A stretch of DNA of 64,000 nucleotides from an uncultured Acidobacteriaceae bacterium (lineage in GTDB: Bacteria; Acidobacteriota; Terriglobia; Terriglobales; Acidobacteriaceae). The notes under the pieces are model-generated. The model saw only the letters and a list, made by a program, of their open reading frames with translations, was not told the origin of the DNA and searched no databases. Of the stretch, positions 30,849 to 60,764 are shown piece by piece. The stretch's first letter is position 1. Each line of letters begins with the position of its first letter. The position numbers were made by a program, and so were the translations under genes. The stretch is from NCBI GenBank assembly GCA_963836305.1, contig CAWIJP010000015.1, positions 45,900-109,899 on the forward strand, given 5' to 3'.

Positions 30849-32459
30849 TTAAATCGCGAGCGCAGGCAAGATGGCTTCCCGGGTCATTTCTCCGTCCACC
30901 ATGCGCCAGATTGCCAGCGGGTTCTCGTTTTTCAATTCCGGTGGCAATGCCTCGTCGGAGAACCCCTGATAGCAAACCGGCCGCGTAAATCTGAAGATCG
31001 CCCGGGTTCCAACCGATGTCGAGCGGCCATCGGAGGTCGAGGGATACGGGCCGCCATGCACCATGGCGTTACACACCTCGACGCCAGTGGGAAACCCGTT
31101 CACGACGAGGCGTCCGACTTTGTTCTCGAGGATCGCTATAAGATCCGCGAACTCACCGAGATCTTGTTCCGTGCCATGAATCGTTGCAGTGAGATGGCCT
31201 TCGAGAGAGTGGGCGATCTCAAGAATCTGCTCGCGGCCCGAGTGCCGAACCAGAAGCGTCGTGGGGCCAAAGATCTCGGCACCAAGGTCAGACGCCAGAA
31301 ATGCAGCAGCGTCAGTTTCGAAGAGTGCGGAGCCAGCGGCAAAACCAGCGCACGGGGAAGCTTTTGAAGCTTCGGCAACGAGCGTAACAGCAGCATCCGC
31401 TTTCCGGCCAGCAAGCGCCAAATCATAAGAAGAGTGAATAGTCTTAGTCAGCAAATGGAACGGCGCAGAATCATTGACCAATTGGCGTAACTTATCGGTA
31501 AACGAGGCAGCTTGGTTGCCGTCGGAAAGAAATATCATTCCCGGCTTGGTGCAAAACTGGCCAGCACCGAGAGTGAACGAAGTATGTAGTCCCACTGCGA
31601 TAGCTTCGCCGCGTTCTCGTAGCGCACCCGGCAAAATGAAAACGGGATTGGTACTGCTCATTTCTGCGTAGAACGGAATCGGCTCGGGCCGCGCGGCTGC
31701 TAGATCCATTAACACTCTTCCCGCGGTGCGCGATCCAGTGAAACCGCCGGCTCTCACCGACGGATGCTGCATCAGCGCAGTGCCTATCTGCGCACCGCTG
31801 CCGAACAGAAGCGAAAAAACGCCTTCCGGTAGACCACACTCTCTAACGCTTTCGCGCACCATCTGACCCACAAGTTCGCTTGTGCCGGGATGCGCGGCGT
31901 GCGCCTTTACGATGACAGGATTTCCAGATGCGAAAGCGGACGCTGTGTCCCCTCCCGCAACCGAGAACGCCAACGGAAAGTTGCTTGCGCCAAAAACAAC
32001 GACCGGCCCAAGCGGGCGCAGCATGGAACGAATGTCCGGCTTTGCGGCTGGTTTGCGGTCGGGGTCGGCGCGGTCGATACGCGCGTCAACCCAGGATCCC
32101 TCCTCTGCAACCTCCGCAAACAGGCGGAGTTGAGCACAGGCACGCGCAGTCTCACCCTGCAATCGCGGTTTCGGGAGGGCGGTTTCCTCGTGCGCGCGTT
32201 CGACTATATCAGCCGCAATGGATTCTATTTTCGCGGCGATCGTGTCTAGAAACGCGCCCCGATCACGTCCTGGAAGGCGGCCGTAGGTGGCAAACGCTTC
32301 TGCCGCGAGGCGAGCTGCGAGGTCTACCTCTTCTGCGGTTGCGGCAATGAATCCCGGCTGCAGTGGTTGTCCGCTGGTCGGGTTCGTGGCGTAGGACGGC
32401 CCTGATGAACCTCTACCGTCGCGAAATCCGATTAGTGATCGACCAAAAAGTCTTGACAT
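30849..32459 (-). CDS. Aldehyde dehydrogenase, 2-oxoglutarate semialdehyde (2,5-dioxovalerate) dehydrogenase-like
   Basis: 536 aa ALDH fold. 'FTLGAGQFCTKPGM' (catalytic Cys) and 'FYAEMSSTNPVF' (general-base Glu region). Last gene of the hydroxyproline operon, which is the basis for the substrate call. Confidence 0.8.
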   Translation of the reverse strand: MSRLFGRSLIGFRDGRGSSGPSYATNPTSGQPLQPGFIAATAEEVDLAARLAAEAFATYGRLPGRDRGAFLDTIAAKIESIAADIVERAHEETALPKPRLQGETARACAQLRLFAEVAEEGSWVDARIDRADPDRKPAAKPDIRSMLRPLGPVVVFGASNFPLAFSVAGGDTASAFASGNPVIVKAHAAHPGTSELVGQMVRESVRECGLPEGVFSLLFGSGAQIGTALMQHPSVRAGGFTGSRTAGRVLMDLAAARPEPIPFYAEMSSTNPVFILPGALRERGEAIAVGLHTSFTLGAGQFCTKPGMIFLSDGNQAASFTDKLRQLVNDSAPFHLLTKTIHSSYDLALAGRKADAAVTLVAEASKASPCAGFAAGSALFETDAAAFLASDLGAEIFGPTTLLVRHSGREQILEIAHSLEGHLTATIHGTEQDLGEFADLIAILENKVGRLVVNGFPTGVEVCNAMVHGGPYPSTSDGRSTSVGTRAIFRFTRPVCYQGFSDEALPPELKNENPLAIWRMVDGEMTREAILPALAI

Positions 32460-32470
32460 TTTCTCTATAC

Positions 32471-33394
32471 CTATTTCGCAGTTGGCAAAGCGAAGCTGCC
32501 TGTCGATTGCGGCTTTGTCCGCAGCGCGTCACGAATAATTTTTTGCACCCGCTTCAGTTCGTCGCCTACCAACGCGAGGCGCGGCGGCCGCACCCGTGGA
32601 TTCCCCATCCCCACCTCGGCCTGGACAAGCTTGATCAGCTGAACGAAGTTCGGCACCGTGTCCATGCGCAGCAATGGCAAGAACCAGCGATATATCTCAA
32701 ACGCTTTGTCGCTCTCTCCACGGGTACCACAGTTGAAAAGATCAACCGATTCCCGGGGAAACGCGTTGGCCAGGCCCGCAATCCAACCAGTCGCGCCTAC
32801 ACCGATGGCCTCCAGCACTGCATCATCCACGCCAACGGAGATTTCCAAACGACGATCGAGGAGGGCGCGAATCGCAGATACGCGCCTGGCATCGGTACTC
32901 GACTCTTTTACTGCTTCGAAGTTTTCATACTCTGCGGCCAATTCGCAGATTTGTTCCGGAAGGAAATCAGTTCCATAGGCGACCGGATTGTTGTAAAGCA
33001 TGCAGGAAAGCGGAGTCGCCTCAAACACGCTGGCAACGTGCGCCTTCATTTCCCGCCAGCTTCCCTGGTAGACGTAAGGAGGAAGCACCATAAGGGCATC
33101 ACAGCCTAGCTCCGCGGCAGTCTTCGCCTGCGCGATTGCTTCGGAAGTCGTAAGCGCCGAAATGGAGGCGACCACCGGCCCACGACCCTGGACAACAGCC
33201 ACGCAGGTGCGCAAAATCTCTGCTTTCTCTTCAAACGTTAGAGCCGCGCCCTCGCCTAATGAACCAAGCGCCACAATTCCCGAGCAACCGTTATCCAGGA
33301 GCCATCCGCAATGCTTTGTCAAGAAACTGTGATCCACACGAAGGTCCTCGGTAAATCCTGTTGTGATTGCAGGGATCACGCCCTTCCAGTTCAT
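32471..33394 (-). CDS. DapA/DHDPS-family enzyme, Delta1-pyrroline-4-hydroxy-2-carboxylate deaminase-like
   Basis: 'GVIPAITTGFTEDLRVDHSFLTKHCGWLLDNGCSGIVALGSLGEGAALTFEEK' is a DHDPS/NAL-family N-terminus. The operon context gives the specific assignment. Confidence 0.8.
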   Translation of the reverse strand: MNWKGVIPAITTGFTEDLRVDHSFLTKHCGWLLDNGCSGIVALGSLGEGAALTFEEKAEILRTCVAVVQGRGPVVASISALTTSEAIAQAKTAAELGCDALMVLPPYVYQGSWREMKAHVASVFEATPLSCMLYNNPVAYGTDFLPEQICELAAEYENFEAVKESSTDARRVSAIRALLDRRLEISVGVDDAVLEAIGVGATGWIAGLANAFPRESVDLFNCGTRGESDKAFEIYRWFLPLLRMDTVPNFVQLIKLVQAEVGMGNPRVRPPRLALVGDELKRVQKIIRDALRTKPQSTGSFALPTAK

Positions 33395-33404
33395 CAGTGT
33401 TCTC

Positions 33405-34709
33405 CTATTCCTTCGCTATACTGCAGTTCAACTCGCGGGCTTGGGCTGCTAAGGTTTCTACGCGCGCGGGGAAGACTGGCGGTCGAATCGAATCTGGCTT
33501 CCACTTAAAAAGAAATTGCGCCGCGGGCCCACAGACACGGCCTTGGCATGGTCCCATGCCACAACGCGTATGCAACTTAGCGGAGCGCCATGAGGTGTGC
33601 TCACGAAGACGCGAATAAGAAACATCCTCGCAGCGGCAGACCACGGTCTCTGGCAAAGGCAGGCTTCTCAGCTCTGAGCGCGGGCGGAACGTGCGATCGA
33701 GCAACCGCGCAAAACGCCGCGCCTTTTTACGCTCACGGAACAACGCTCTCGCTTCATCCGTGCGTCCAGCAGAAGCCAGGCCCGCGATCTGGCCTTCGAC
33801 AAGTGCTAGTTCTACACCTCCGATACTTGTTGGTTCACCAGCACAAAAGATGGATGAAACGGACGTCCTCTGGAAGTCATCGACCTGCACGCAGCCGTTG
33901 CCGACTGCACAGCCCAATAACAATGGCAGTTCGATATTAGGGACGAGGTGAAAACCGCAGGCCAAGTAATCACAAGGGATCGTTTCGATTTTTCCGGCCC
34001 GTGAAATGGTTACGCTCTTGAGCGTCTGCTCGCCGTGAGCGGCGATGGGCCAACTGTTTGTGGCAAATGGAACTCCGGAGAGACGACGCTTCAAGTGGAG
34101 GCCCTGGACAATCTTTGCCGGCCAGCCAAGCAGCTCAACGCCAAACCGAGCCAGGGTTCCACGCGATGCTTGCTCGCAAATCATCGGTATCTCAGCGCCA
34201 TGCTCGCGGAGGTAAGCGGCAACGGCCAGCAGCAAAGGACCGGTGCCGGCGACGATCATACGTTTGCCGCGAATTGGCAGGCCGCACTTGACCATGGCTT
34301 GCAGGCCGCCCGCACCCATCACGTTGGGAAAAGTCCAGCCCGGGAACGGCAAAAACTTTTCCCTCGCACCAGTCGCGAGCACAAGCTTGTCGTAGGTCAA
34401 CTCGCAAAAACCATCGAGATTTTCTGCCAATAAAACACCTGAGGCCGGCTGGTGCACGACGCGCAGTCCACATAGCGAAGTAACTCCTGTGTTGTGCAGC
34501 CGTTCAATCCATTTCGAAGCGTCAGCGTTCTCTTTACCTTTCGAGTGATTATCCTCTGACTGACCACGCCAAATCTGACCGCCGAGTTTGAAGTTGTCAT
34601 CGACAATTCCAACCCGCATGCCGGACTCCACAGCACAAGAAGCGGCAGCGATGCCCGCTGGCCCTCCCCCAACAACGAGGACATCGAAATGAAGTTGGGA
34701 TCCTCTCAT
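33405..34709 (-). CDS. FAD/NAD(P)-binding oxidoreductase, D-hydroxyproline dehydrogenase alpha-type subunit (HcnB / opine-oxidase-A-like)
   Basis: 'FDVLVVGGGPAGIAAASCAV' dinucleotide fold. C-terminal BFD-like [2Fe-2S] segment 'VCRCEDVSYSRLREH..HTRCGMGPCQGRVCG'. Confidence 0.8.
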   Translation of the reverse strand: MRGSQLHFDVLVVGGGPAGIAAASCAVESGMRVGIVDDNFKLGGQIWRGQSEDNHSKGKENADASKWIERLHNTGVTSLCGLRVVHQPASGVLLAENLDGFCELTYDKLVLATGAREKFLPFPGWTFPNVMGAGGLQAMVKCGLPIRGKRMIVAGTGPLLLAVAAYLREHGAEIPMICEQASRGTLARFGVELLGWPAKIVQGLHLKRRLSGVPFATNSWPIAAHGEQTLKSVTISRAGKIETIPCDYLACGFHLVPNIELPLLLGCAVGNGCVQVDDFQRTSVSSIFCAGEPTSIGGVELALVEGQIAGLASAGRTDEARALFRERKKARRFARLLDRTFRPRSELRSLPLPETVVCRCEDVSYSRLREHTSWRSAKLHTRCGMGPCQGRVCGPAAQFLFKWKPDSIRPPVFPARVETLAAQARELNCSIAKE

Positions 34710-34716
34710 CGTTTTT

Positions 34717-34983
34717 TCACTTCCCGGTATCTACTTCCATCCCCTGTTCGCACAACACCTGGCAGCTTCGGCAATGCGGTTTCCCGTCGATGGTCACGCG
34801 GCACTCAAAACAAATCCCCATACCACACAAAGGACCACGAGGTTCGCCATTCATGGACCTGCGGCAAGCTTGTCCCGCAATTCCAATGGCGACCGCGACC
34901 GTCGAAACTGACGGAACCACAACTGGCACCCCATTGACCGTCACGGTGACTTGATCAGGCACGACAGGACTAAGCATGCACAT
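34717..34983 (-). CDS. Small (2Fe-2S)-binding subunit (HcnA-like gamma subunit)
   Basis: 88 aa. 'VTVNGVPVVVP' and Cys cluster 'GPLCGMGICFECRVTIDGKPHCRSCQ'. Overlaps the upstream gene end (ATG at 34983 or 34977). Confidence 0.8.
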   Translation of the reverse strand: MCMLSPVVPDQVTVTVNGVPVVVPSVSTVAVAIGIAGQACRRSMNGEPRGPLCGMGICFECRVTIDGKPHCRSCQVLCEQGMEVDTGK

Positions 34984-36100
34984 GCTCCTTCACGGTCCGC
35001 GAGGGCAAGTACGGTTCGATGGGAATCTCTGATTTTTCCCCGGTGATCTGGTCGGCGAGGAGGCGCGCCGTGCCCAGAGATGTGGTAATTCCCAAGCCTT
35101 CATGGCCCGTCGCCAGGAATACTGTTTTATCTCCGGTTGATCGTCCAATCAGTGGAAGCTTGTCGGGAGTGGCGGCGCGAAACCCCGTCCAGGTGCGCAC
35201 GGTCGATACTTGAGCCAGACCAGGCATGTACTCCTGAGCACGTTGCAGCATCCGCACCAGCATGAAGTTATCCACGGCCTTGTGCTCCGCACCGTACTGC
35301 CGCGAAGATCCGATAAGAATCTGACCGGTTCGGCGAGGCTGCACGTTAAACGCCACTGAATCGGCAGTTAGCGAGTGAGCGCTCTTGAGATAGCCAAGTT
35401 CCACCAATTGATGCCGCACCAATCCCGGATAGCGGTCGGTGATAACGAGATGCCCCTTCCTCTTCTGGATTTCAACTCCCGGCGTTAGTTCTGGAGCAGA
35501 AGCTCCCGTCGCATTCACGATGATCTCTGCCAGGATCTTCGAGCCGTCAGTGAACTCAACACTTCCTTGGCCGATCTGCGCAACGGTAACGTCGAGCCGA
35601 ACTTTCGTTCCACGTTCCTGCGCGCGATCCAGGAGAAAGCGTGCGGCACACGGCGGATACAACACACCATCTTCTGGAACAAGAAGACCGCCAGCCAGGT
35701 CGGGTCGAAGATTGGGCTCGAGACTTTGTAAGGCGCGCGCGTCGAGCACTTCGGTAGGAACTCTGCGCTTTTCGTAGTAGTCGTGTTTGCGGCGCACCTC
35801 GATCATCTCTTCTTGGTCAGCCGCAACCCAGATGGTGCCGCACTGATCGTATTCCACGTCATCCGGCAATGTGGATCTCGATTCCTGCCACAGTTGCTGG
35901 GAGTAGCGAGTCAGCGCAAACTGGGCATCGGAATCGTCCATCACGACGATGTGCCCCATCCCGGCTGCGGTAGCGCCGCTTCCCACGATGTCCCGATCAA
36001 CAACCGCGACCTGCAGACCCCGGCGCGCCAATTCGTCGGCGCATGCCGCGCCCACAATTCCCGCGCCTACAACCGCGACGTCATAGGCTGCATTGCTCAT
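34970..36100 (-). CDS. FAD-dependent oxidoreductase (DAO family), D-hydroxyproline dehydrogenase beta-type subunit
   Basis: 'YDVAVVGAGIVGAACADELARRGLQVAVVDRD' (GxGxxG + acidic residue). 376 aa. 4-bp overlap with the epimerase gene. Confidence 0.85.
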   Translation of the reverse strand: MSNAAYDVAVVGAGIVGAACADELARRGLQVAVVDRDIVGSGATAAGMGHIVVMDDSDAQFALTRYSQQLWQESRSTLPDDVEYDQCGTIWVAADQEEMIEVRRKHDYYEKRRVPTEVLDARALQSLEPNLRPDLAGGLLVPEDGVLYPPCAARFLLDRAQERGTKVRLDVTVAQIGQGSVEFTDGSKILAEIIVNATGASAPELTPGVEIQKRKGHLVITDRYPGLVRHQLVELGYLKSAHSLTADSVAFNVQPRRTGQILIGSSRQYGAEHKAVDNFMLVRMLQRAQEYMPGLAQVSTVRTWTGFRAATPDKLPLIGRSTGDKTVFLATGHEGLGITTSLGTARLLADQITGEKSEIPIEPYLPSRTVKEHVHA

Positions 36101-37050
36101 GCGCGAATTCCCATCTGCAGCGGATCGCGCGGGTCCAGCACCAGTTCTGCCTCAGCGTTCACGAACGCCGATCCCGTGATGCTCGGATATACGTTGCCAT
36201 CAATAATCTTGACGCTGCCTTCAAACACGCTACCGACGATGCTTTCCTGTTTCCAGGTTTCGCCTTCGCGGATCTTGCCATCGGCATACAGGCAAGCCAG
36301 TTTGGCGCTGGTGCCAGTGCCGCAGGCTGAACGATCGTAAGCTTTGCCGGGGCAGAGAACGAAGTTCTTGCTATCAACCCCCGGGCGTTGAGATGGACCG
36401 AACAACTCGACGTGGTCGATCTCCCTGCCATCTGAACCAGTGATACCTTGTTTGCGAAGGGCCTGCCGGATGGCCCAGGTAAAGGCTGTCAGTTCGTCAA
36501 CATTCCCGAGGGTTAACTCCATGTCGTGTTTGCGCACGAGGAAGAACCAGTTTCCACCCCACGCCACGTCGCCTGTAACCTCGCCGTAACGGGGAACATC
36601 GACTGCGACATTCGCGGCACTGCGATAGCTTGCGACGTTATTTACCGTAACCTCACCGCCCTCATGCAGGACTGCACTGACGGTGCCCACCGGAGTCTCG
36701 ACCTTGTGCTGTCCGGGCCCGATGCGCTTCATGTAAGCCAACGTTGCAATCAGGCCTATGGTCCCATGGCCGCACATTCCCAAATAGCCAACATTATTAA
36801 AGAAGATCACCCCGGCGGCGCAGGCGGGATCTACTGGATCGGAGAGCAGTGCGCCCACTATCACGTCGGAGCCTCTGGGCTCATTCACAACGGCCGAGCG
36901 AAAATTGTCGTGCTTGTGGCGAAAACACTCCAACCGCTCCTCCAGCGGCCCGGAGCCGAGATCAGGCCCGCCACTCACTACCAAGCGGGTTGGTTCCCCG
37001 CCGGTGTGGGAATCGATAACCCGCACCCTATGGCATTGTTTGTTAATCAT
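36097..37050 (-). CDS. 4-hydroxyproline 2-epimerase (proline racemase family)
   Basis: 'VIDSHTGGEPTRLVVSGGP'. Both catalytic Cys motifs are present ('LGMCGHGTIG' and 'DRSACGTGTSA'), i.e. the Cys/Cys epimerase/racemase type rather than the Cys/Thr dehydratase type. ATG 37050 is preferred over the ORF-track start at 37146, which would run into the divergent permease gene. Confidence 0.85.
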   Translation of the reverse strand: MINKQCHRVRVIDSHTGGEPTRLVVSGGPDLGSGPLEERLECFRHKHDNFRSAVVNEPRGSDVIVGALLSDPVDPACAAGVIFFNNVGYLGMCGHGTIGLIATLAYMKRIGPGQHKVETPVGTVSAVLHEGGEVTVNNVASYRSAANVAVDVPRYGEVTGDVAWGGNWFFLVRKHDMELTLGNVDELTAFTWAIRQALRKQGITGSDGREIDHVELFGPSQRPGVDSKNFVLCPGKAYDRSACGTGTSAKLACLYADGKIREGETWKQESIVGSVFEGSVKIIDGNVYPSITGSAFVNAEAELVLDPRDPLQMGIRA

Positions 37051-37125: not shown

Positions 37126-37147
37126 TTTTATGGATACAATATGCAAT
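37126..37147 (+). promoter_or_regulatory. Candidate operator (site A) at the hyp-operon / permease divergent region
   Basis: TTTTATGGATACAATATGCAAT. Matches site G (41145-41166) at 17/22 positions and the reverse complement of site B (56926-56947) at 16/22 (counted by hand). Overlaps the permease ATG (37141). Confidence 0.4.
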
Positions 37148-50901: not shown

Positions 50902-50918
50902 TTTTGTATACTGTATTC
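50902..50918. promoter_or_regulatory. TGTATAC-type element (site C) in the TBDR / CRTAC1 divergent region
   Basis: TTTTGTATACTGTATTC. TTGTATAC (50904-50911) is identical to the 8-mer in the reverse complement of site B, followed by a second half-copy TGTATTC. Confidence 0.3.
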
Positions 50919-55858: not shown

Positions 55859-56803
55859 TCACCTGGGCGCCTGCGCACTTGACGGTTGCTTCGCCGACGC
55901 TTCTCGTTGCAGCGCCATTTCCCGTTCCGCTTCCGGCTTATGCCCGGTGCGAGCGTAGGCGGTAGCCAACTGGTAGTGGCCGGCTGGATCTCCAGGCTGC
56001 ATCTTTATATAGCTCTGCAGGGGTGCGATGGCTTCCGTAAACTTTCCTGCTGAGTTAAGTGACATCCCGAGCGCCAGATATGCCTCTTGAAACCCCTGAT
56101 CAAGCTTCGCTGCTCGCGAAAAGTGCGCAACGGCTTCGTCCCATTGCCCGGCTTGACGAGCCATCTCTCCCAGCAGAAACTCCGCTGGAGCGTATTCCGG
56201 ATCGATCTTCAACTCTTCTTCGAATTCCGCCTTGGCGCTCTGGGGATCCGCCGGCGATCTCGACATCAAGATGCGCCCCAGACGGTAGTGAATACCATGC
56301 AGGTTAGGCTCTTGCTCGAGGATCTCTTTGTAGAGGGCAACGGCCTTATCCCAGTTTTCCTGCGACTCAAAAGCCTCAGCTTCGAGCTGTTCTGCCTGAT
56401 GTGAAGTGGGTGCGGTTGCCGCAAGTTCCTGTGCCGCCCGTGAAGCCAGCTCCGAATAAAAGTGCGTGGTGGTGTAGAGCACATCGAGATCGCGAGGAAA
56501 TTCGCGGTTGAGCAGAATCAGCGCCTCGACTGCAGCGTCCGTACGGTCAAGGCTCATCGCGCAACGAGCGGTAGCCATCTCGACGCGATACTTGGCTTGG
56601 TTGTCAGTAAGATGCGGCGTAGCTTTCTTCAGAATCGGCAACGCCTCCCGGCAGCGCCCTTTCGAGGCAAGGTTGACGCCTTGTTCTGTTAAGGACGAGG
56701 GTTCAACGGGTGGACCTTTCGGAGACACCTGAGCACCAGATATCTCGACCACAAGAGTGCACACCCAGAAAAGGAAGCAGCAAGCTTGAAAGAATCTACT
56801 CAT
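55859..56803 (-). CDS. TPR-repeat protein, exported
   Basis: 314 aa. Signal 'CCFLFWVCTLVVEISGAQV'. TPR units (e.g. 'AVAHFSRAAKLDQGFQEAYLALGMSLNSAGKFTEAIAPLQSYIKMQPGDPAGHYQLATAY'). First gene of a TPR-CRTAC1-TPR string. Confidence 0.8.
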   Translation of the reverse strand: MSRFFQACCFLFWVCTLVVEISGAQVSPKGPPVEPSSLTEQGVNLASKGRCREALPILKKATPHLTDNQAKYRVEMATARCAMSLDRTDAAVEALILLNREFPRDLDVLYTTTHFYSELASRAAQELAATAPTSHQAEQLEAEAFESQENWDKAVALYKEILEQEPNLHGIHYRLGRILMSRSPADPQSAKAEFEEELKIDPEYAPAEFLLGEMARQAGQWDEAVAHFSRAAKLDQGFQEAYLALGMSLNSAGKFTEAIAPLQSYIKMQPGDPAGHYQLATAYARTGHKPEAEREMALQREASAKQPSSAQAPR

Positions 56804-56925: not shown

Positions 56926-56947
56926 AGTGTATACAATATCCATAAAG
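56926..56947 (-). promoter_or_regulatory. Candidate operator (site B) in the TPR-operon / GH127 divergent region
   Basis: Forward AGTGTATACAATATCCATAAAG; reverse complement CTTTATGGATATTGTATACACT. Contains the perfect 8-bp palindrome TGTATACA (56928-56935) and the 10-mer TTTATGGATA shared with site A. Lies 45-66 bp upstream of the GH127 ATG. Confidence 0.4.
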
Positions 56948-56991
56948 AACGGCCAAAGCATTTGGAAACGGCTCTGTGGAGGAACACGCTG

Positions 56992-58935
56992 ATGACGCGA
57001 TTTGGGGATTTCTCTCGCAGACAATTTATGACTTCAGTGGCTGCCGCCGCCGGTACAGCTCTGATCCCCAGAGCCCTATCCGCAACGCCTCCGCAAGATC
57101 CCGTTGTGAACACAACACAAAAAGCAGGCAAGGCCGTCAGTTATGAAAAAGTTCCCTGGAGAGTCCGCCCATTTCCCATGAAACAAGTACGGCTGGGCGA
57201 AGGTCCATGCAAGGTCGCGATGGAAGCCGACCGACAGTTTCTGCATTCGCTGCCTCCAGACCGCCTCCTGCATACATTTCGCATCAACGCTGGTATTCCT
57301 TCGTCGGCGGAACCCCTAGGAGGATGGGAGAAGCCTGACTGTGAGCTGCGCGGTCACTATGCTGGCGGACACTACCTTTCGGCCTGCGCTCTAATGTACG
57401 CCAGCACTGGAGACGACGATCTCAAAAAAAATGCGAATACCGTCGTAGCCGAACTCGGCAAATGCCAAACAGCTTTGAAGAGCGGTTATCTCAGCGCCTT
57501 CCCGATTGATTTCTTCGACCGCCTTCGGGAGCGCGAGAGAGTGTGGGCTCCCTTTTATACGATTCACAAGATCATGGCCGGACTGCTTGACATGTACGTC
57601 CATACCGCCAATGAGCAGGCACTCGAGATGGATGAGAAGATAGCCGACTGGGTCGCGGGCTATACCGGCTCACTCAGTTACGAACATATGCAACGCGTCC
57701 TGGGAACGGAATACGGCGGCATGGGCGAGGTCCTCTCGAATTTATATGCCGTCACCGGCAAAGAATATTACATCGAGGTCGCGCAACGTTTTGATAAGAA
57801 GCGGTTCTGCGATCCGCTGGCTGCTCATCGCGATGAGCTGAAGGGCCTGCACGTCAATACGCACATCCCGCAAGTGATCGCGGCGGCGCGCTATTACGAA
57901 CTTACCGGCGACCGCCGCTATCGCGACATCGCGGAATACTTCTGGGATGAAGTGGTGAGCGAGCGCTCCTATTGCACCGGCGGCACCAGCAACGGCGAAT
58001 CCTGGAATACGGACCCCGGCATACTTTCAACTCAGCTCAGCACCAATACCACGGAATGTTGCTGCGCTTACAACATGATGAAGTTGACCCGGCACCTGTT
58101 TGGCTGGGAACCCGATGCCCACCTGATGGATTACTACGAGCGTACGTTGTTCAATCACCGGCTCGGCACGATCAATCCAGAAGACGGGACGATGATGTAC
58201 TACCTGCCGCTGGCGTCGGGTTACTGGAAAACTTTCGGCAAGCCCTTTGACGCATTATGGTGCTGCACCGGAACGGGATCGGAAGAGTATGGAAAATTGA
58301 CCGACACGATTTACTTCCATGACGACGATTCACTCTATGTAAATCTCTTCATCGACTCACAACTGGAATGGCTGGAGAAAGGTCTGCGCGTAAGGCAAGA
58401 GACGCGCTTCCCGGAAGAGCAAGGCACTACGATCACTGTCTCCACTAAGAGCCCAGCACAGTTTGCGATCAACCTACGCGTTCCCTATTGGGTGCAAGGC
58501 GGCAACGTGAAAATCAATGGCGCTCCTCTGCCGGCATTTTCCAGTCCGAGCAGCTACCTCACTCTCAATCGAGTCTGGAAGAGCGGAGACAAAATTGAAC
58601 TTAGTTTGCCTATGGGTTTGCATATCGACAGCATGCCTGACAATCAGACCATCCAGGCCGCGATGTACGGCCCACTCGTGCTTGCCGGACGGTTCGAGGC
58701 GGTGAGCAAAGAAATGACCTACGGTGATTACGAGCCAAAAGCGGGCGACGAGAAAAGAGTCGCGGACATCGTCGCTGACGAGAGCAAGCCCACGGCGTGG
58801 ATTCAACCCGACGCCAAGCAGCCCCTTACCTTCCAAACCGCAGGACAATCGCAATCACTGACCATGGTGCCTCTCTACAAAGTGATCCACGAGCGCTACG
58901 CCGTCTATTGGAAGGTGGATAACAAGACCACGTAA
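56992..58935 (+). CDS. Glycoside hydrolase family 127 (DUF1680; beta-L-arabinofuranosidase family), Tat signal
   Basis: 'FSRRQFMTSVAAAAGTALIP'. Conserved 'GHYLSA', 'FYTIHKIMAGLLD' and 'YCTGGTSNGE'. Cys-rich catalytic/Zn region 'TECCCAYNMMKL' and 'LWCCTGTGSE'. ATG 56992 is preferred to TTG 56962. Confidence 0.8.
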   Translation: MTRFGDFSRRQFMTSVAAAAGTALIPRALSATPPQDPVVNTTQKAGKAVSYEKVPWRVRPFPMKQVRLGEGPCKVAMEADRQFLHSLPPDRLLHTFRINAGIPSSAEPLGGWEKPDCELRGHYAGGHYLSACALMYASTGDDDLKKNANTVVAELGKCQTALKSGYLSAFPIDFFDRLRERERVWAPFYTIHKIMAGLLDMYVHTANEQALEMDEKIADWVAGYTGSLSYEHMQRVLGTEYGGMGEVLSNLYAVTGKEYYIEVAQRFDKKRFCDPLAAHRDELKGLHVNTHIPQVIAAARYYELTGDRRYRDIAEYFWDEVVSERSYCTGGTSNGESWNTDPGILSTQLSTNTTECCCAYNMMKLTRHLFGWEPDAHLMDYYERTLFNHRLGTINPEDGTMMYYLPLASGYWKTFGKPFDALWCCTGTGSEEYGKLTDTIYFHDDDSLYVNLFIDSQLEWLEKGLRVRQETRFPEEQGTTITVSTKSPAQFAINLRVPYWVQGGNVKINGAPLPAFSSPSSYLTLNRVWKSGDKIELSLPMGLHIDSMPDNQTIQAAMYGPLVLAGRFEAVSKEMTYGDYEPKAGDEKRVADIVADESKPTAWIQPDAKQPLTFQTAGQSQSLTMVPLYKVIHERYAVYWKVDNKTT

Positions 58936-58961
58936 AATTTCTCGCGGTGGAAAGACAGTTT

Positions 58962-60764
58962 ATGACTCGTTGCATTCGGCCGGCTCTTAGCTGCCTGGTT
59001 CTGTTTGTCTTGACATCGATGTCTGTGCAATCTTCACCCGCCCAAGGCAGCGGGGCGTCGCCCTCGACCGTGGAGAATCGCCGCCACGATCTTCATTCTC
59101 TCTTCGATGAGGAATGGCAATATGAGTTGCGCACGAATCCCGAGTGGGCAACGATGTTGGGCGACAACCGTTACAACGATCGCCTGAGTGACAGCTCCCC
59201 AGAATTCTTTCGCTCCGATCTGGAGCAGCGACGCGGCTTTCTGGCGCGTTTCGAGGCCATTGATCCTGCCGGCCTCTCGCGGCAAGACACGCTGAGCCTT
59301 GAGTTGATGATTCGCAAACTGGGTTTAGAGATTGAAGGAGCGCAGTTCAAGCACTGGGAGATGCCGGTGAATCAGATGGGCGGCCTGCATCTGGAACTAC
59401 CGGACATGATCGTCATTACTCCCTTCAACAGCCTTGCCGATTACGATAACTACCTGGCGCGCCTGCACCAGATTCCGCGCGCGTTCGATCAAGTGACAGC
59501 CAATATGCGGCAGGGCATGAAAGATGGTTTGATGCCTCCACGCTATCTTCTCGAGAAAGTCGCTGCGGAGACAGATGACATTGCAAGCAAGACCGGCGAG
59601 AACAGTCCATTTGCCAAACCGCTGAAGGAGTTCCCGGCTAATGTTTCATCAGCCGAGCAAAAACGGTTGCGGGACGAGTTGCTCGCGGCCATCGCCGAGC
59701 AGATCATCCCCACCTACCAGCGTTTTGCCGCCTTCGTTCGCAATGAGTACGCTCCCCACGGCCGCACTGACCCGGGAGTCTGGTCTCTGCCCGACGGCGA
59801 GGCGCGCTATCGCTTCGCCATCCGCCGCATTACCACAACCAATATGACCCCGGAAGAGATCCACGCTCTCGGCCTGAAACAGATCGACGAAATCGAAGCG
59901 GAAATGCTCACCCTTGCGCACAAGCTGGGATTCAAAGACCTGGCGAGTCTCAATGAGCACATCAAGAGCGACCGGCGCTTCTACGCAACCTCCGGCCAGG
60001 AGGTGCTCGATTTATACGCAAACTACGCACGTGGAATGGAGCCCGAGTTGCCTAAGCTCTTCGGTCACCTGCCTAAGACCAAGCTTACGGTGATTCCCAT
60101 GGAAGCCTCGCGCTCCAAGAATGCCGTGCCTGCGGATTATTCGAGTGGCACTCCGGACGGTTCTCGTCCCGGGCACATCAACGTCAATGAATGGGATCCC
60201 GAGCATCGATTAGTGCTGAACATCGAGGCCATCGCTTACCATGAAGGCATTCCCGGCCACCATCTTCAAATTTCATTGGCGCAAGAGATGCAGGACCTGC
60301 CAGCGTTTCGGCGCCACGCGGAGTACACCGCCTTCGTCGAGGGTTGGGCGCTCTACGCCGAACGCCTAGGAAAGGAAGTCGGGCACTACCAGGATCCCTA
60401 TAGCGACTACGGACGTTTGGAAAACGAGATGTGGCGCGCAATCCGCCTTGTGATCGATACAGGCGTGCACGAAAAACATTGGTCGCGCGAGCAGATGGTG
60501 GACTATTTCCATCGCTATACCGCGATGGATGAGCCAAACATCCAGAGCGAAGTCGACCGTTACATTGCGTGGCCCGGTCAAGCTTTGGCATATAAGCTGG
60601 GACAGTTGGAAATTCTGAAGCTACGCGAAGAGGCACGGCAGAAGCTCGGCGACAAGTTCGACATCCGCGCCTTCCACGATGAAGTACTGGGAAATGGAGC
60701 GTTGCCACTCGACGTGCTGGACTTGGAAGTGAACAACTGGATCAACAGTCAGACGAAGCAATAG
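58962..60764 (+). CDS. DUF885-family protein (putative Zn metallopeptidase), exported
   Basis: Signal 'LSCLVLFVLTSMSVQSSPAQG'. The family signature 'AYHEGIPGHHLQ' (HExxxH-like) lies near the C-terminal third, with 'EVDRYIAWPGQALAYKLG'. ATG 58962 is preferred to GTG 58947. Confidence 0.8.
   Translation: MTRCIRPALSCLVLFVLTSMSVQSSPAQGSGASPSTVENRRHDLHSLFDEEWQYELRTNPEWATMLGDNRYNDRLSDSSPEFFRSDLEQRRGFLARFEAIDPAGLSRQDTLSLELMIRKLGLEIEGAQFKHWEMPVNQMGGLHLELPDMIVITPFNSLADYDNYLARLHQIPRAFDQVTANMRQGMKDGLMPPRYLLEKVAAETDDIASKTGENSPFAKPLKEFPANVSSAEQKRLRDELLAAIAEQIIPTYQRFAAFVRNEYAPHGRTDPGVWSLPDGEARYRFAIRRITTTNMTPEEIHALGLKQIDEIEAEMLTLAHKLGFKDLASLNEHIKSDRRFYATSGQEVLDLYANYARGMEPELPKLFGHLPKTKLTVIPMEASRSKNAVPADYSSGTPDGSRPGHINVNEWDPEHRLVLNIEAIAYHEGIPGHHLQISLAQEMQDLPAFRRHAEYTAFVEGWALYAERLGKEVGHYQDPYSDYGRLENEMWRAIRLVIDTGVHEKHWSREQMVDYFHRYTAMDEPNIQSEVDRYIAWPGQALAYKLGQLEILKLREEARQKLGDKFDIRAFHDEVLGNGALPLDVLDLEVNNWINSQTKQ

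What the first reader, a model, noticed from the sequence alone, without database searches (positions are those of the whole stretch)
30849..60764. Candidate super-locus for harvesting hydroxyproline-rich (glyco)proteins
About 30 kb brings the following genes together:
- A complete Hyp to 2-oxoglutarate operon.
- A divergent APC permease.
- Two DPP-IV-type peptidases, which cleave X-Pro/X-Hyp dipeptides.
- A 1300-aa TBDR co-transcribed with one DPP-IV and an unknown 792-aa Tat protein.
- A GH127. The founding member of this family, Bifidobacterium longum HypBA1, removes beta-L-arabinofuranose from Hyp-linked arabino-oligosaccharides of plant extensins.
- A DUF885 putative metallopeptidase.
- A GntR regulator.

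At least five of the exported enzymes carry twin-arginine signals. Taken together this reads like a PUL-like system that deglycosylates, trims, imports and burns extensin/AGP-type (or collagen-type) substrates. I do not know of a described Acidobacteria system of this kind. The functional link between the modules is inference from co-localisation and from the shared promoter motif reported below.
Basis: partly seen in the sequence, partly recalled or inferred. Interest (0 to 1): 0.75.

Follow-up and report, generated by a model that had tools for sequence, protein, structure and literature searches.

The report
Hydroxyproline glycoprotein harvesting locus in Acidobacteria
A soil acidobacterium keeps sugar-removing enzymes, proline-specific peptidases, an outer-membrane importer and a complete hydroxyproline-burning pathway in one 30 kb stretch behind a shared control sequence, which looks like a previously undescribed kit for eating plant cell-wall glycoproteins.

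Summary
The gene set is real at 30849-60764, with corrections.
- The Hyp operon has six genes, including an unlisted 88-aa 2Fe-2S subunit.
- The "GH127" is closer to GH146 (BT0349, 350 bits) than to HypBA1 (60 bits).
- Four proteins, not five, carry Tat signals; two are unlisted FG-GAP/ASPIC proteins.
- The second "DPP-IV" lacks the double-Glu motif.
- The 792-aa unknown (U792) models confidently (pLDDT 90) as an (alpha/alpha)6-barrel glycosidase-like protein. It has no Pfam or PDB sequence relative.

- A FadR-type operator (G[GT]ATAC[AT][AG]TAT) occurs three times in 64 kb, once before each module, and is conserved in orthologous promoters of about 30 relatives.
- The layout is syntenic in Ca. 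Sulfotelmatobacter-level genomes. Relatives insert GH27, GH51 or further GH127-clan genes.
- A rearranged Terriglobales locus adds a true GH127 and L-arabinose isomerase.
- A sugarcane endophyte (Endosaccharibacter, Alphaproteobacteria) independently clusters GntR, TBDR, a GH127-clan gene, U792, DUF885, M24 prolidase, APC and Hyp genes, with GTATAC palindromes in three promoters.

Best reading: a GntR-controlled regulon for arabinosylated Hyp-rich glycopeptides. The exact substrate, all enzyme specificities and the regulation are untested. This is a new variant of known kinds.

The parts
30849..32459 (-). Aldehyde dehydrogenase, candidate alpha-ketoglutarate semialdehyde dehydrogenase (last step, to 2-oxoglutarate)
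   Evidence: PF00171. Best NCBIfam hit is AlphKGSA GucD, far below its cutoff. Best PDB hits are 1eyy and 3v4c at 454 and 440 bits. Its operon position is conserved in relatives. Specificity is inferred from context.
32471..33394 (-). DHDPS-family protein, candidate pyrroline-4-hydroxy-2-carboxylate deaminase (LhpC-like)
   Evidence: PF00701 at 179 bits, below the dapA cutoff. Conserved next to the epimerase and dehydrogenase genes, including in L087.
33405..34709 (-). FAD/NAD oxidoreductase with a BFD-like 2Fe-2S domain, candidate large subunit of D-hydroxyproline dehydrogenase (LhpE-like)
   Evidence: PF07992 plus PF04324. Conserved in the operon.
34717..34983 (-). 88-aa 2Fe-2S protein, candidate small subunit of D-hydroxyproline dehydrogenase (LhpF-like).
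   Evidence: ORF found. PF13510 Fer2_4, E 3.6e-19. An 81-aa Fer2_4 gene sits at the same position in L001 and L003.
34970..36100 (-). DAO-family FAD oxidoreductase, candidate catalytic subunit of D-hydroxyproline dehydrogenase (LhpB-like)
   Evidence: PF01266 at 236 bits. Conserved in relatives and in L087.
36097..37050 (-). 4-hydroxyproline 2-epimerase. The ORF runs to 37146, but homologues are 315-318 aa, so the start is probably at 37050.
   Evidence: NF010577 at 436.7 bits against a cutoff of 442. PDB 2azp (PA1268) at 413 bits. Motifs GMCGHG and DRSACGTG give the Cys/Cys pair.
37132..37142 (.). Operator 1 (GGATACAATAT), between the Hyp operon and the APC/DPP-IV genes. It overlaps a sigma70-like promoter on the minus strand.
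   Evidence: The 19-mer TTATGGATACAATATGCAA is identical in about 22 orthologous loci while the flanks vary.
37141..38724 (+). APC-family amino-acid permease, candidate Hyp/Pro importer. The start codon is uncertain: the first ATG lies inside operator 1.
   Evidence: PF13520 and PF00324. An APC permease also lies beside the Hyp genes in L087.
38772..41138 (+). Canonical bacterial DPP-IV (S9B) with a Sec signal
   Evidence: PF00930 at 329 bits plus PF00326. PDB 5olj at 380 bits and 2ecf at 325 bits. DWVYEEE double-Glu and GRSGG serine motifs present.
41226..41966 (+). GntR/FCD (FadR-subfamily) regulator, candidate HypR-like repressor of the locus
   Evidence: PF00392 plus PF07729. 33% identical over the full length to the GntR in the Endosaccharibacter locus. 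Present in 28 of 35 near-clade loci.
41961..44339 (-). U792: Tat-exported protein of an unnamed family, predicted multi-domain (alpha/alpha)6-barrel glycoside-hydrolase-like fold
   Evidence: No Pfam, NCBIfam or PDB sequence hit, even with a profile. AF2 pLDDT 90.4. Foldseek hits to GH95, GH94, GH78 and GH116 at no more than 11% identity. 1424 family representatives. Recurrent neighbours are GH127-clan, DUF885 and X-Pro peptidase genes.
44365..46713 (-). Divergent S9B peptidase with a Sec signal; di- versus tri-peptidyl specificity is open
   Evidence: PF00930 (partial, 188 bits) plus PF00326. Best PDB hit is P. gingivalis prolyl tripeptidyl peptidase 2d5l at 196 bits; DPP4s reach about 180 bits. 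GTSAG motif present, no double Glu.
46792..50799 (-). TonB-dependent-transporter-like outer-membrane barrel, first gene of the barrel-S9B-U792 gene string
   Evidence: PF13620 plus PF25183 at 440 bits; no Plug hit. Gaps of 78 and 25 nt to the next two genes. Co-transcription is inferred.
50906..50916 (.). Operator 2 (GTATACTGTAT), in the divergent region between the TBDR operon and the first FG-GAP gene
   Evidence: GAATA[CA]AGTATACAAAAT is found upstream of 19 of 20 near-clade orthologous TBDR genes and of none of 8 far-clade ones.
51089..52825 (+). FG-GAP/UnbV_ASPIC (CRTAC1-like) Tat protein; role unknown; possibly co-regulated through operator 2
   Evidence: PF13517, PF07593 and an SRRNFL signal. 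A frequent neighbour of U792 in Acidobacteriota only.
52853..54073 (-). TPR protein; role unknown
   Evidence: TPR families. Syntenic in relatives.
54114..55838 (-). Second FG-GAP/UnbV_ASPIC Tat protein; role unknown
   Evidence: PF13517, PF07593 and an SRRHFL signal.
55859..56803 (-). TPR protein; role unknown; first gene of the string divergent from the GH146-like gene
   Evidence: TPR families.
56929..56939 (.). Operator 3 (GTATACAATAT), upstream of the GH146-like/DUF885 pair
   Evidence: TAGTGTATACAATATCCA is conserved upstream of the orthologous glycosidase in L004-L006, L023, L025, L035 and L048.
56962..58935 (+). Tat-exported GH127/GH146-clan cysteine glycosidase, GH146-like (probable beta-L-arabinofuranosidase). 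The likely start is the ATG at 56992.
   Evidence: PF07944 at 380 bits plus PF20736. 5opj (BT0349) E 2e-103 against HypBA1 E 1e-15. ECC and WCC motifs align to the Zn/catalytic positions.
58947..60764 (+). DUF885 zincin-like protein with a Sec signal; function unknown; candidate peptidase
   Evidence: PF05960 at 610 bits. Motif HEGIPGHH instead of HExxH. Only uncharacterised PDB relatives. Recurs beside U792 or GH127-clan genes in L039, L071, L086, L087 and L090.

Best explanation
The region is one GntR-controlled regulon of three to four operator-bearing transcription units. It lets a Ca. Sulfotelmatobacter-like acidobacterium feed on arabinosylated hydroxyproline/proline-rich glycoproteins or glycopeptides of plant or algal cell walls, that is extensin-type HRGPs in the broad sense.

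Proposed flow. Every step is inferred from families and context; none has been assayed.
1. A TonB-dependent-type outer-membrane barrel takes up glycopeptide fragments.
2. In the periplasm, Tat-exported glycosidases strip the glycan. These are the GH146-like Zn-cysteine beta-L-arabinofuranosidase-clan enzyme and U792, a new (alpha/alpha)6-barrel family. Relatives add GH27, GH51 and true GH127.
3. Sec-exported S9B peptidases trim the exposed Pro/Hyp-rich backbone. One is a canonical DPP-IV and one a divergent, possibly tripeptidyl, enzyme. The zincin-like DUF885 may contribute.
4. An APC permease imports Hyp or Pro.
5. Epimerase, three-subunit D-Hyp dehydrogenase, deaminase and semialdehyde dehydrogenase convert Hyp to 2-oxoglutarate.

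A FadR-type repressor, the GntR/FCD gene in the middle, is proposed to bind GTATAC-cored operators in front of the Hyp/APC, TBDR and glycosidase units and to release them when Hyp or a pathway intermediate appears.
For: Families and active-site motifs:
- All listed families confirmed.
- Epimerase resembles PA1268 and has the Cys/Cys pair.
- DPP-IV has the double-Glu motif.
- The clan glycosidase has the Zn/Cys motifs.

U792:
- Confident GH-like fold.
- 44-48% identical homologues annotated as secreted proteins of the plant-pathogenic fungi Rhynchosporium and Colletotrichum.

Shared operator:
- 3 sites in 64 kb against 0.02 expected, one per module.
- Site 1 overlaps a promoter-like element.
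- The same 19-mers are invariant in orthologous promoters of about 30 loci whose flanks vary.
- Present upstream of 19 of 20 near-clade TBDR genes.
- The core fits the FadR-subfamily TKGT/ACMA motif (PMC6608401).

Synteny and re-assembly:
- Full layout in L001, L003, L004-L006 and many of L007-L038.
- GH27 (9 loci) and GH51 (9 loci) are inserted between U792 and GntR.
- A second GH127-clan gene directly follows the Hyp operon in L026, L029 and L031.
- L023, L025 and L048 place the GH146-like gene directly against S9B-U792, with the operator between them.
- L039 combines APC, epimerase, DHDPS, DPP-IV, DUF5695, U792, DUF885, a true GH127 (HypBA1 at 245 bits), L-arabinose isomerase and a TBDR, with five operator sites.

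Other phyla:
- Endosaccharibacter trunci (L087) has GntR, TBDR, a GH127-clan gene, U792, DUF885, M24 prolidase, APC, DAO, DHDPS and epimerase. CGTATAC[CG] occurs only in its three promoter regions, 5 matches against 0.16 expected.
- Anaerolineae (L090) has U792, two M24 X-Pro peptidases, DUF5695, DUF885 and GH127.
- L092 has GH127, an ABC sugar importer, an unknown gene and U792, mirroring the B. longum hypBA cluster (PMC7263609).
- L057, L068 and L077 pair U792, a GH146-like gene, GntR, an S9 peptidase and a TBDR with proline dehydrogenase.

Precedent:
- GntR-type HypR regulons that include TonB-dependent transporters, collagenases and Pro-peptidases (PMC5343134).
- An S9 prolyl peptidase gene beside the Xanthomonas HRGP-arabinosidase genes (PMC6085000).
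Against: - No expression, binding or enzyme data exist.
- The window's clan glycosidase is GH146-like. Characterised GH146 enzymes act on beta-1,3-Araf of arabinan and AGP, not on Hyp-linked beta-1,2 chains (PMC10850190).
- GH121 and GH43 HypAA homologues were not found.
- No prolidase or di/tripeptide transporter lies in the window, so the route from X-Hyp dipeptides to free Hyp is incomplete here.
- At 59-64% U792 identity (46 loci), the Hyp operon is not within 10 kb (except L039 at 66%). Partners there are DUF5695, GH31 and amidase genes, so U792 is not tied to Hyp catabolism everywhere.
- More distant U792 relatives sit in unrelated glycan contexts (L088, L089).
- Near-clade synteny could partly reflect shared ancestry.
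- The operator pattern was defined post hoc, and its assignment to this GntR is inferred. The candidate autoregulatory site in the window has 3 mismatches.
- Four FG-GAP/TPR genes in the middle have no role in the model.
Confidence: 0.6

Rival explanations
1. The substrate is arabinogalactan-protein or pectic arabinan side chains, not extensin-type Hyp-arabinosides. The glycosidases remove terminal beta-1,3-Araf, alpha-Araf, alpha-Gal or beta-Arap from type II arabinogalactan. The Hyp/peptidase genes mop up only the small Hyp-rich core peptide.
For: - The window's enzyme is GH146-like, and the characterised GH146 enzyme Bll3HypBA1 acts on AGPs and arabinan, which carry Araf-beta1,3-Araf structures (PMC10850190). 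That BT0349 also acts on arabinan is from my own knowledge, not checked here.
- GH27 and GH51 in relatives are also AGP side-chain activities.
- L087 has a GH35-like gene.
Against: - No beta-1,3/1,6-galactanase or beta-glucuronidase family was seen in the window or in the syntenic loci.
- AGPs are mostly carbohydrate, yet the locus invests in two or three peptidases and a full Hyp pathway.
- True GH127 (HypBA1-like) genes and L-arabinose isomerase join the set in L039, L090 and L092.
Confidence: 0.2
2. Independent neighbours. A Hyp/proline-peptide utilisation system (Hyp operon, APC, DPP-IV, GntR) happens to lie next to unrelated glycan-degrading genes in a CAZyme-dense acidobacterial genome. 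The link between modules is only inherited synteny.
For: - The flanks of related loci are full of unrelated CAZymes: GH31, GH106, GH78, GH1.
- The window also holds a GH2 and another TBDR-like gene.
- Far-clade U792 loci lack Hyp genes.
- Four FG-GAP/TPR genes of unknown role separate the modules.
Against: - The same operator stands before all three modules and is conserved across relatives.
- The families re-associate in different orders (L023, L025, L039, L048).
- They also re-associate in other phyla, each with its own GTATAC palindromes (L087, L090, L092).
- U792 shares a tight gene string with an S9B peptidase.
Confidence: 0.12
3. The target is collagen, gelatin or other non-glycosylated Hyp/Pro-rich animal or microbial protein, as in the HypR regulons of Alteromonadales. 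The glycosidases are irrelevant to it.
For: - DPP-IV and a prolyl-tripeptidyl-peptidase-like enzyme are classic collagen-peptide trimmers.
- HypR regulons with collagenases and TonB-dependent transporters are known.
Against: - No collagenase family (M9 or U32) appears in the window or relatives.
- Operator-linked glycosidases of the beta-L-arabinofuranosidase clan, GH27, GH51 and L-arabinose isomerase point to arabinosylated plant or algal substrates.
- U792 homologues occur in plant-pathogenic fungi and in a sugarcane endophyte.
Confidence: 0.06

Closest known systems
Bifidobacterium longum hypBA cluster (HypBA1 GH127, HypBA2 GH121, HypAA GH43, ABC importer for beta-Ara2) and the Xanthomonas euvesicatoria xehyp genes (PMC7263609, PMC6085000)
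   Same: - Dedicated removal of arabinofuranosides from hydroxyproline-rich glycoproteins by a GH127-clan cysteine glycosidase plus helper glycosidases.
- In Xanthomonas a prolyl-oligopeptidase (pseudo)gene lies adjacent.
- L092 shows GH127, an ABC importer, an unknown gene and U792 in the same order as the bifidobacterial cluster.
   Different: - The known clusters handle only the sugar. There is no Hyp catabolism, no peptidase set, no TonB-type uptake and no GntR operator network.
- No GH121 or GH43 homologue is present here.
- The clan member here is GH146-like and periplasmic (Tat), whereas HypBA1 is cytoplasmic.
- U792 and DUF885 are not part of the known clusters.
HypR (GntR/FCD) regulons for hydroxyproline/proline utilisation in Proteobacteria and Streptomyces (PMC5343134, PMC6608401; S. 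meliloti HypR as cited there)
   Same: - A GntR/FCD repressor with a FadR-type operator controls epimerase, D-Hyp dehydrogenase, deaminase and semialdehyde dehydrogenase genes.
- In Alteromonadales the predicted regulon extends upstream to a TonB-dependent transporter, secreted collagenases and Pro-specific peptidases.
- A COG0531 (APC) permease is predicted as transporter in Erwinia.
   Different: - Those regulons target collagen-type or free Hyp and contain no glycosidases.
- Here the upstream steps are glycosidases of the beta-L-arabinofuranosidase clan plus an unnamed GH-like family.
- Orthology of this GntR to HypR was not tested. It is only 33% identical to the L087 regulator.
Pseudomonas aeruginosa Lhp pathway (LhpA epimerase PA1268, LhpB/E/F dehydrogenase, LhpC deaminase, LhpG dehydrogenase). 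Pathway composition is from my own knowledge; the PA1268 match was tested.
   Same: The same six-gene enzymatic logic, including the three-subunit flavin/2Fe-2S D-Hyp dehydrogenase.
   Different: The regulator type differs: AraC-type LhpR in Pseudomonas (from my own knowledge) against GntR here. The Pseudomonas operon has no linked glycosidases or outer-membrane importer.
Bacteroidota polysaccharide utilisation loci (SusC/SusD PULs)
   Same: Co-regulated outer-membrane TonB-type importer plus periplasmic or surface hydrolases plus a local regulator. Works like a PUL.
   Different: No SusD-like lipoprotein. The barrel is the acidobacterial CarboxypepD_reg/OMP_b-brl_4 type. The cargo is proposed to be a glycopeptide, and the locus includes the full cytoplasmic amino-acid pathway.

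Membership tests
Bacterial trans-4-L-hydroxyproline catabolic pathway (Lhp/Hyp type) | 4-Hyp 2-epimerase of the proline-racemase family with a Cys/Cys catalytic pair | tested here: met
   PF05544 at 320 bits. NF010577 at 436.7 bits, 5 bits under its cutoff when scored on the over-long ORF. PA1268 at 413 bits. GMCGHG and DRSACGTG motifs.
Bacterial trans-4-L-hydroxyproline catabolic pathway (Lhp/Hyp type) | D-Hyp dehydrogenase, here the three-subunit DAO + Pyr_redox_2/BFD + small 2Fe-2S type | tested here: met
   Three adjacent ORFs with these domains. The same trio is present in L001 and L003. This is domain-level evidence only.
Bacterial trans-4-L-hydroxyproline catabolic pathway (Lhp/Hyp type) | DHDPS-family deaminase and alpha-ketoglutarate-semialdehyde dehydrogenase | tested here: inconclusive
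   The families are right (PF00701, PF00171), but no equivalog model reaches its cutoff. Specificity is inferred from operon context.
Bacterial trans-4-L-hydroxyproline catabolic pathway (Lhp/Hyp type) | Growth on, or enzymatic conversion of, Hyp to 2-oxoglutarate | not testable with these tools
   Needs culture or enzyme assays.
GH127 (HypBA1-type beta-L-arabinofuranosidase) | PF07944 catalytic (alpha/alpha)6 domain with the Cys3-Glu zinc site and catalytic Cys | tested here: met
   PF07944 at 380 bits. TECCC and WCC align with the ETC/WCC of BT0349. The acid/base Glu was not mapped.
GH127 (HypBA1-type beta-L-arabinofuranosidase) | Closest characterised relatives are GH127 members, and the GH127 C-terminal domain (PF20737) is present | tested here: not met
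   HypBA1 reaches only 60 bits (E 1e-15, partial) against 350 bits for GH146 BT0349. There is no PF20737 hit, only a weak DUF4986 hit. So the protein is filed under the GH127/GH146 clan as GH146-like, not under GH127.
GH146 | Full-length similarity to BT0349 and Bll3HypBA1 | tested here: met
   5opj E 2e-103 over residues 66-651. 8k7y and 8k7x E about 1e-54. No phylogeny against CAZy reference sets was possible.
GH146 | beta-L-arabinofuranosidase activity and its linkage specificity | not testable with these tools
   Needs assays on beta-1,2-linked, beta-1,3-linked and Hyp-linked Araf.
Dipeptidyl peptidase IV (MEROPS S9B) | DPPIV_N propeller plus S9 catalytic domain with a GxSxG serine | tested here: met
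   Met by both proteins.
Dipeptidyl peptidase IV (MEROPS S9B) | Double-Glu motif that anchors the substrate N-terminus for dipeptide release | tested here: inconclusive
   Present in 38772-41138 (DWVYEEE). Absent from 44365-46713, whose best PDB hit is a prolyl tripeptidyl peptidase. Only the first protein is filed as DPP-IV proper.
TonB-dependent transporter | 22-strand barrel with an N-terminal plug and a TonB box | tested here: inconclusive
   Barrel domain PF25183 at 440 bits and CarboxypepD_reg present. No Plug (PF07715) or PF00593 hit, even at E<=1. Related acidobacterial barrels in L057 and L089 do hit PF00593. The TonB box was not examined.
Bacteroidota-type PUL | Adjacent SusC/SusD pair | tested here: not met
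   No SusD-family hit among the 20 gene products scanned.
HypR-type GntR regulon | GntR wHTH plus FCD domain, and a FadR-type palindromic operator upstream of the hyp genes | tested here: met
   PF00392 plus PF07729. Operator conserved upstream of the epimerase operon in every near-clade locus that holds it. In silico only.
HypR-type GntR regulon | Binding of the regulator to the operator and release by Hyp; orthology to S. meliloti or Shewanella HypR | not tested
Needs EMSA or a reporter assay.
Peptidase clan MA (zincins), for DUF885 | HExxH zinc-binding motif | tested here: not met
   No HExxH. A variant HEGIPGHH is present. Clan membership is stated by Pfam as reported in PMC12572635. PDB relatives are uncharacterised. 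'Metallopeptidase' therefore remains a guess.
Tat-exported proteins | S/T-R-R-x-F-L-type motif followed by a hydrophobic stretch at the N-terminus | tested here: met
   Met by four proteins: U792, the GH146-like protein and both FG-GAP/ASPIC proteins. Not met by the peptidases, DUF885 or the barrel. This was a motif inspection only; no predictor was run.

The most novel reading that the evidence does not exclude
U792 founds a new glycoside-hydrolase family whose job is to release arabino-oligosaccharides from, or cleave the Araf-beta-Hyp bond of, hydroxyproline-rich glycoproteins, making it a functional analogue of GH121. DUF885 is the missing peptidase for contiguous Hyp runs that DPP-IV cannot cut. 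Together with GH127-clan enzymes and X-Pro peptidases, and in some lineages DUF5695, they form an ancient, horizontally mobile 'HRGP degradation cassette'. It is shared by soil Acidobacteriota, plant endophytes and Chloroflexota, and in part by plant-pathogenic fungi. In Ca. Sulfotelmatobacter it is wired by a HypR-like repressor directly to Hyp catabolism.
Probability: 0.3. Interest if true: 0.8.

Novelty: new variant of a known kind. Interest (0 to 1): 0.66.

Why it matters
Hydroxyproline-rich glycoproteins are a large, nitrogen-rich and protease-resistant fraction of plant and algal cell walls. How soil bacteria turn them over is essentially unknown: the described systems (Bifidobacterium, Xanthomonas) deal only with the sugars.

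If this reading is right, it gives the first complete route for a dominant peat and soil lineage, from outer-membrane uptake through deglycosylation and proteolysis to 2-oxoglutarate.

It also assigns testable functions to three orphan families:
- the unnamed U792 family, with about 1400 clusters at 50% identity;
- DUF885;
- DUF5695, by association.

The same gene set sits in a cultured sugarcane endophyte, Endosaccharibacter trunci KSS8, so there is a tractable model. The predicted operator/regulator pair could also serve as a marker for HRGP use in metagenomes.

Tried and rejected
- Exact look-up of the window's U792 in the contig index found nothing, because the deposited gene call uses a later start.
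- Sequence searches of U792 against Pfam, NCBIfam and PDB found nothing beyond the Tat signal, as a single sequence or as a 33-sequence profile. The idea that it is a peptidase was dropped after the fold result. GH121 did not appear among the 50 fold matches listed.
It was repeated with the closer set A2.
- Literature searches for DUF5695 and DUF885 gave no functional study. Searches combining Hyp, DPP-IV, TonB and arabinofuranosidase terms found no paper describing such a locus.
- Three contexts of distant U792 relatives were uninformative: L089 (beta-glucan-type genes), L088 (RG-II-like genes plus an S15 X-Pro peptidase) and the fungal contig L091.
- The 735-aa unknown gene next to U792 in L092 is not a U792 paralogue.
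- The loose 12-mer search with 3 mismatches is no better than chance, 20 matches against 15 expected. Only the strict pattern is informative.
- Terminator and promoter scans are at background level and do not settle the operon structure.
- I considered calling the region a PUL and rejected that because there is no SusD.
- I considered collagen as the substrate and rated it low.

Full report
**1. What is in the sequence**

Six-frame ORFs plus Pfam and NCBIfam scans confirm the gene set at 30849-60764.

On the minus strand, 30849-37146 holds six genes:
- an aldehyde dehydrogenase;
- a DHDPS-family protein;
- a Pyr_redox_2 protein with a BFD-like 2Fe-2S domain;
- a DAO flavoprotein;
- a proline-racemase-family protein.

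The last scores as a 4-hydroxyproline epimerase: NF010577 gives 436.7 bits against a cutoff of 442 on an ORF that is about 32 residues too long. Its best solved relative is P. aeruginosa PA1268 at 413 bits, and it has the Cys/Cys pair. This is the enzyme logic of the P. aeruginosa Lhp pathway, including the three-subunit D-Hyp dehydrogenase (pathway composition from my own knowledge).

Divergent from the operon lie an APC permease and a canonical bacterial DPP-IV. The DPP-IV hits 5olj at 380 bits and S. maltophilia 2ecf at 325 bits, and carries DWVYEEE and GRSGG motifs. A GntR/FCD regulator follows.

Convergent on the regulator is a same-strand string, with gaps of 78 and 25 nt:
- a 1335-aa CarboxypepD_reg/OMP_b-brl_4 barrel;
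- a second, divergent S9B peptidase (no double Glu; best PDB hit is the P. gingivalis prolyl tripeptidyl peptidase);
- a 792-aa Tat protein without any Pfam, NCBIfam or PDB sequence match, here called U792.

After them lie a PF07944 glycosidase with a Tat signal and a DUF885 protein. An integrase and an IS91-type transposase (28583-30483) border the left end.

I count four Tat signals in the region, not five or more.

**2. Corrections to the families**

- The 'GH127' is GH146-like. It scores 350 bits (E 2e-103, nearly full length) to BT0349 (5opj), about 190 bits to the bifidobacterial GH146 enzyme, and only 60 bits to HypBA1. It has no GH127 C-terminal domain.
- Its TECCC and WCC motifs align with the Zn/catalytic positions of the clan. 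It is therefore probably an active cysteine glycosidase.
- DUF885 has HEGIPGHH rather than HExxH, and only uncharacterised structures as relatives. 'Metallopeptidase' is a guess from clan membership.
- The barrel has no detectable Plug domain.

**3. The unknown 792-aa protein**

The family is large: 1424 representatives at E<=0.001 among the 50%-identity clusters. Members are called only 'hypothetical' or 'Tat pathway signal protein' wherever a source names them.

An AlphaFold model from a 33-sequence alignment is confident (pLDDT 90.4, pTM 0.90). It shows an N-terminal beta domain, an (alpha/alpha) helical barrel and a C-terminal beta sandwich. Foldseek against the PDB returns only multi-domain (alpha/alpha)6 glycosidases and phosphorylases (a putative glycoside hydrolase, 2rdy, which I believe is GH95; cellobiose/cellobionic-acid-type phosphorylases; alpha-L-rhamnosidases; GH116 beta-glucosidases; the family numbers other than GH116 are from my own knowledge), at 8-11% identity and TM 0.3-0.5.

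It is therefore most likely a glycoside hydrolase of a family with no Pfam model and no solved relative. It is not a peptidase. Homologues at 44-48% identity are secreted proteins of the plant-pathogenic fungi Rhynchosporium and Colletotrichum.

**4. A shared operator**

The three divergent promoter regions each hold one copy of G[GT]ATAC[AT][AG]TAT, at 37132, 50906 and 56929. These are the only three matches in 64 kb, against 0.02 expected.

I derived the pattern from these sites, so the count alone is circular. The independent evidence comes from other genomes:
- TTATGGATACAATATGCAA is identical upstream of the epimerase operon in every near-clade locus that contains it, while the flanking intergenic DNA is only 40-60% conserved.
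- TAGTGTATACAATATCCA stands upstream of the orthologous GH146-like gene in L004-L006, L023, L025, L035 and L048.
- GAATA[CA]AGTATACAAAAT stands upstream of 19 of 20 near-clade TBDR genes and of none of eight far-clade ones.
- Some relatives also have a site upstream of the GntR gene (L019, L020, L035).

The TGTATACA core fits the FadR-subfamily TKGT/ACMA consensus (PMC6608401). Site 1 overlaps a sigma70-like promoter for the Hyp operon, as expected for a repressor.

**5. Synteny**

Relatives of U792 at 73-88% identity belong to Ca. Sulfotelmatobacter and 'Acidobacteriaceae' MAGs. They keep the order FG-GAP/TPR, TBDR, S9B, U792, GntR, DPP-IV, APC, then the Hyp operon. The GH146-like/DUF885 pair sits beyond the second FG-GAP/TPR pair on the same contigs.

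Counts among 35 such loci are lower bounds, because many contigs are cut:
- S9B: 30
- GntR: 28
- TBDR: 24
- epimerase: 19

The locus is not frozen:
- GH27 (9 loci) and GH51 (9 loci) are inserted between U792 and GntR.
- DPP-IV and APC are missing in L026, L029, L031 and L036.
- A second GH127-clan gene directly follows the semialdehyde dehydrogenase gene in L026, L029 and L031.
- In L023, L025 and L048 the GH146-like gene abuts S9B-U792, with the operator between them.

L039 (Terriglobales, U792 66% identical) rebuilds the set in another order: APC, operator, epimerase-DHDPS-DPP-IV, DUF5695, two operators, U792-DUF885-GH127, L-arabinose isomerase, two operators, TBDR. Its GH127 is a true one (6ex6 at 525 bits, HypBA1 at 245 bits).

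At 59-64% identity (Acidiferrales, Bryobacterales and others; 46 loci) the Hyp operon is not within 10 kb. The frequent partners there are:
- DUF5695: 24 loci
- FG-GAP/TPR: 18
- GH31: 15
- GH127-clan genes: 13
- S9B: 9
- amidase: 8

In L057, L068 and L077 the set is U792, a GH146-like gene, GntR, an S9 peptidase and a TBDR. L057, L060, L068 and L077 also carry proline dehydrogenase, and an operator-like site precedes the barrel in L057 and L068.

**6. Other phyla**

- Endosaccharibacter trunci KSS8 is an alphaproteobacterial endophyte of sugarcane stems (PMC11239595). It has, in one 18 kb stretch: GntR/FCD, a TBDR with Plug, a GH127-clan gene, U792 (43% identical), DUF885, a GH35-like gene, M24 prolidase, an APC permease, DAO, DHDPS and epimerase. 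GTATAC occurs three times in its 22 kb, each time in a promoter region: upstream of the TBDR, between the GH127-clan gene and U792, and between DAO and DHDPS. These sites form part of the palindrome ATCGTATACGAT (CGTATAC[CG]: 5 matches against 0.16 expected). Its GntR is 33% identical to the window's.
- An Anaerolineae MAG has U792, an AMP_N/M24 aminopeptidase-P-type gene, DUF5695, a Creatinase_N/M24 prolidase-type gene, DUF885 and a true GH127.
- A 2.6 Mb high-GC contig has LacI, GH127, an ABC sugar importer, an unknown gene and U792. That is the architecture of the B. longum hypBA cluster, with U792 where GH121 or GH43 would be.

So U792, DUF885, GH127-clan glycosidases and X-Pro peptidases form a recurring set. 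That set is coupled to Hyp or Pro catabolism in at least three independent arrangements.

**7. Interpretation**

This is a GntR-controlled regulon for arabinosylated Hyp/Pro-rich glycopeptides:
1. uptake through the barrel;
2. periplasmic deglycosylation by the GH146-like enzyme and U792 (relatives add GH27 for Ser-alpha-Gal or beta-Arap, GH51 for alpha-Araf, and a true GH127);
3. backbone trimming by the two S9B peptidases and perhaps DUF885;
4. import through the APC permease;
5. oxidation of Hyp to 2-oxoglutarate.

Shown here: families, motifs, fold, operator conservation, and gene-neighbourhood recurrence. Inferred: every specificity, the compartment logic, the regulator-operator pairing, the inducer and the substrate.

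Gaps in the model:
- No prolidase or peptide transporter lies in the window.
- There is no GH121 or GH43.
- The FG-GAP/TPR genes are unexplained.
- The choice between extensin and AGP is unresolved.

Rivals are AGP or arabinan as substrate (0.2), unrelated neighbours (0.12) and collagen-type substrate (0.06).

**8. Comparison and novelty**

The pieces are known kinds:
- the Lhp/Hyp pathway;
- HypR-type GntR regulons that in Alteromonadales extend to TonB-dependent transporters, collagenases and Pro-peptidases (PMC5343134);
- the bifidobacterial and Xanthomonas HRGP-arabinosidase clusters, the latter with an adjacent prolyl peptidase pseudogene;
- PUL-like organisation.

The combination is what the searchable literature does not describe. 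That combination is glycosidases, proline-specific peptidases, an outer-membrane importer and complete Hyp catabolism under one operator. Two or three orphan families (U792, DUF885, DUF5695) are consistent members of it.

I file it as a new variant of a known kind, with interest 0.66. All evidence is computational.

Noticed in passing
window 28583-30483: A phage-integrase-family recombinase (240 aa) and an IS91-family transposase (Y2_Tnp plus Zn_Tnp_IS91, 393 aa) lie directly against the 3' end of the Hyp operon. In L026, L029 and L031 a GH127-clan gene follows the operon at that position, so the element may have displaced or interrupted locus content in this genome.
   Followed up: partly
window 51089-56803: Two FG-GAP/UnbV_ASPIC (CRTAC1-like) Tat proteins, each paired with a TPR protein, sit inside the locus and share the operator-bearing divergent promoters. 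They are frequent neighbours of U792 in Acidobacteriota (23 of 35 near loci, 18 of 46 far loci) but are absent from the Alphaproteobacteria and Chloroflexota versions. Function unknown.
   Followed up: partly
P0245, P0406, P0407, P0253; L091: U792 has 44-48% identical homologues annotated as secreted or uncharacterised proteins in the plant-pathogenic fungi Rhynchosporium spp. and Colletotrichum kahawae. UniRef labels some of them 'Glutaminase A'. This suggests inter-kingdom transfer of a plant-cell-wall-directed enzyme.
   Followed up: no
L030:18099-21122, L039:7001-9856, L090:14129-16912 and 24 far-clade loci: DUF5695 (about 930-950 aa, no literature on function) is the most frequent neighbour of U792 in the 59-64% identity clade. 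It also lies between two M24 peptidase genes in the Anaerolineae locus. It is a further orphan family tied to this gene set.
   Followed up: partly
L092:2609-12286: A LacI-flanked gene string (GH127 with the GH127 C-terminal domain, SBP, two permeases, a 735-aa protein with no Pfam hit, then a U792 homologue) mirrors the B. longum hypBA1/ABC/hypBA2/hypAA cluster. The 735-aa protein is unrelated to U792.
   Followed up: partly
L057, L060, L068, L077: In these gp2-type Acidobacteria and related MAGs, proline dehydrogenase (PF01619) takes the place of the Hyp operon next to U792 and a GH146-like gene; a GntR gene is seen in all four. An S9 peptidase and a TBDR-like barrel are seen in L057 and L068, and an operator-like site (TGTATACAATAT) precedes the barrel there.
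   Followed up: partly
window 37128-37146: The first in-frame ATG of the APC permease ORF (37141) lies inside the conserved operator 19-mer, so the true start codon and leader of the permease gene are uncertain. The epimerase ORF is also about 32 codons too long (TTG at 37146 against homologue-consistent ATG at 37050), as is the GH146-like ORF (TTG at 56962 against ATG at 56992).
   Followed up: partly
window 60917-62302 and 62296-64000: An MFS transporter of the D-galactonate-transporter subfamily follows DUF885. Its orthologue in L004 and L005 lies about 9 kb further away, next to a mandelate-racemase-family enzyme. A 505-aa minus-strand ORF (62296-63813) has no Pfam or NCBIfam hit. It is not clear whether these belong to the locus.
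   Followed up: no
window 27-3134 and 14793-17117: A second CarboxypepD_reg/OMP_b-brl_4 barrel (1035 aa) and a Tat-signal GH2 (MDRRDFIKK) lie upstream in the window with no operator match. This shows how CAZyme- and barrel-dense the genome is.
   Followed up: no
L025:300-5551: In one rearranged relative an M1 peptidase fragment, a DDE transposase, a distant proline-racemase-family gene (29% identical to the epimerase) and an M24 peptidase precede the GH146-like / operator / S9B-U792 unit. This is another mobile-element-associated remodelling of the locus.
   Followed up: no
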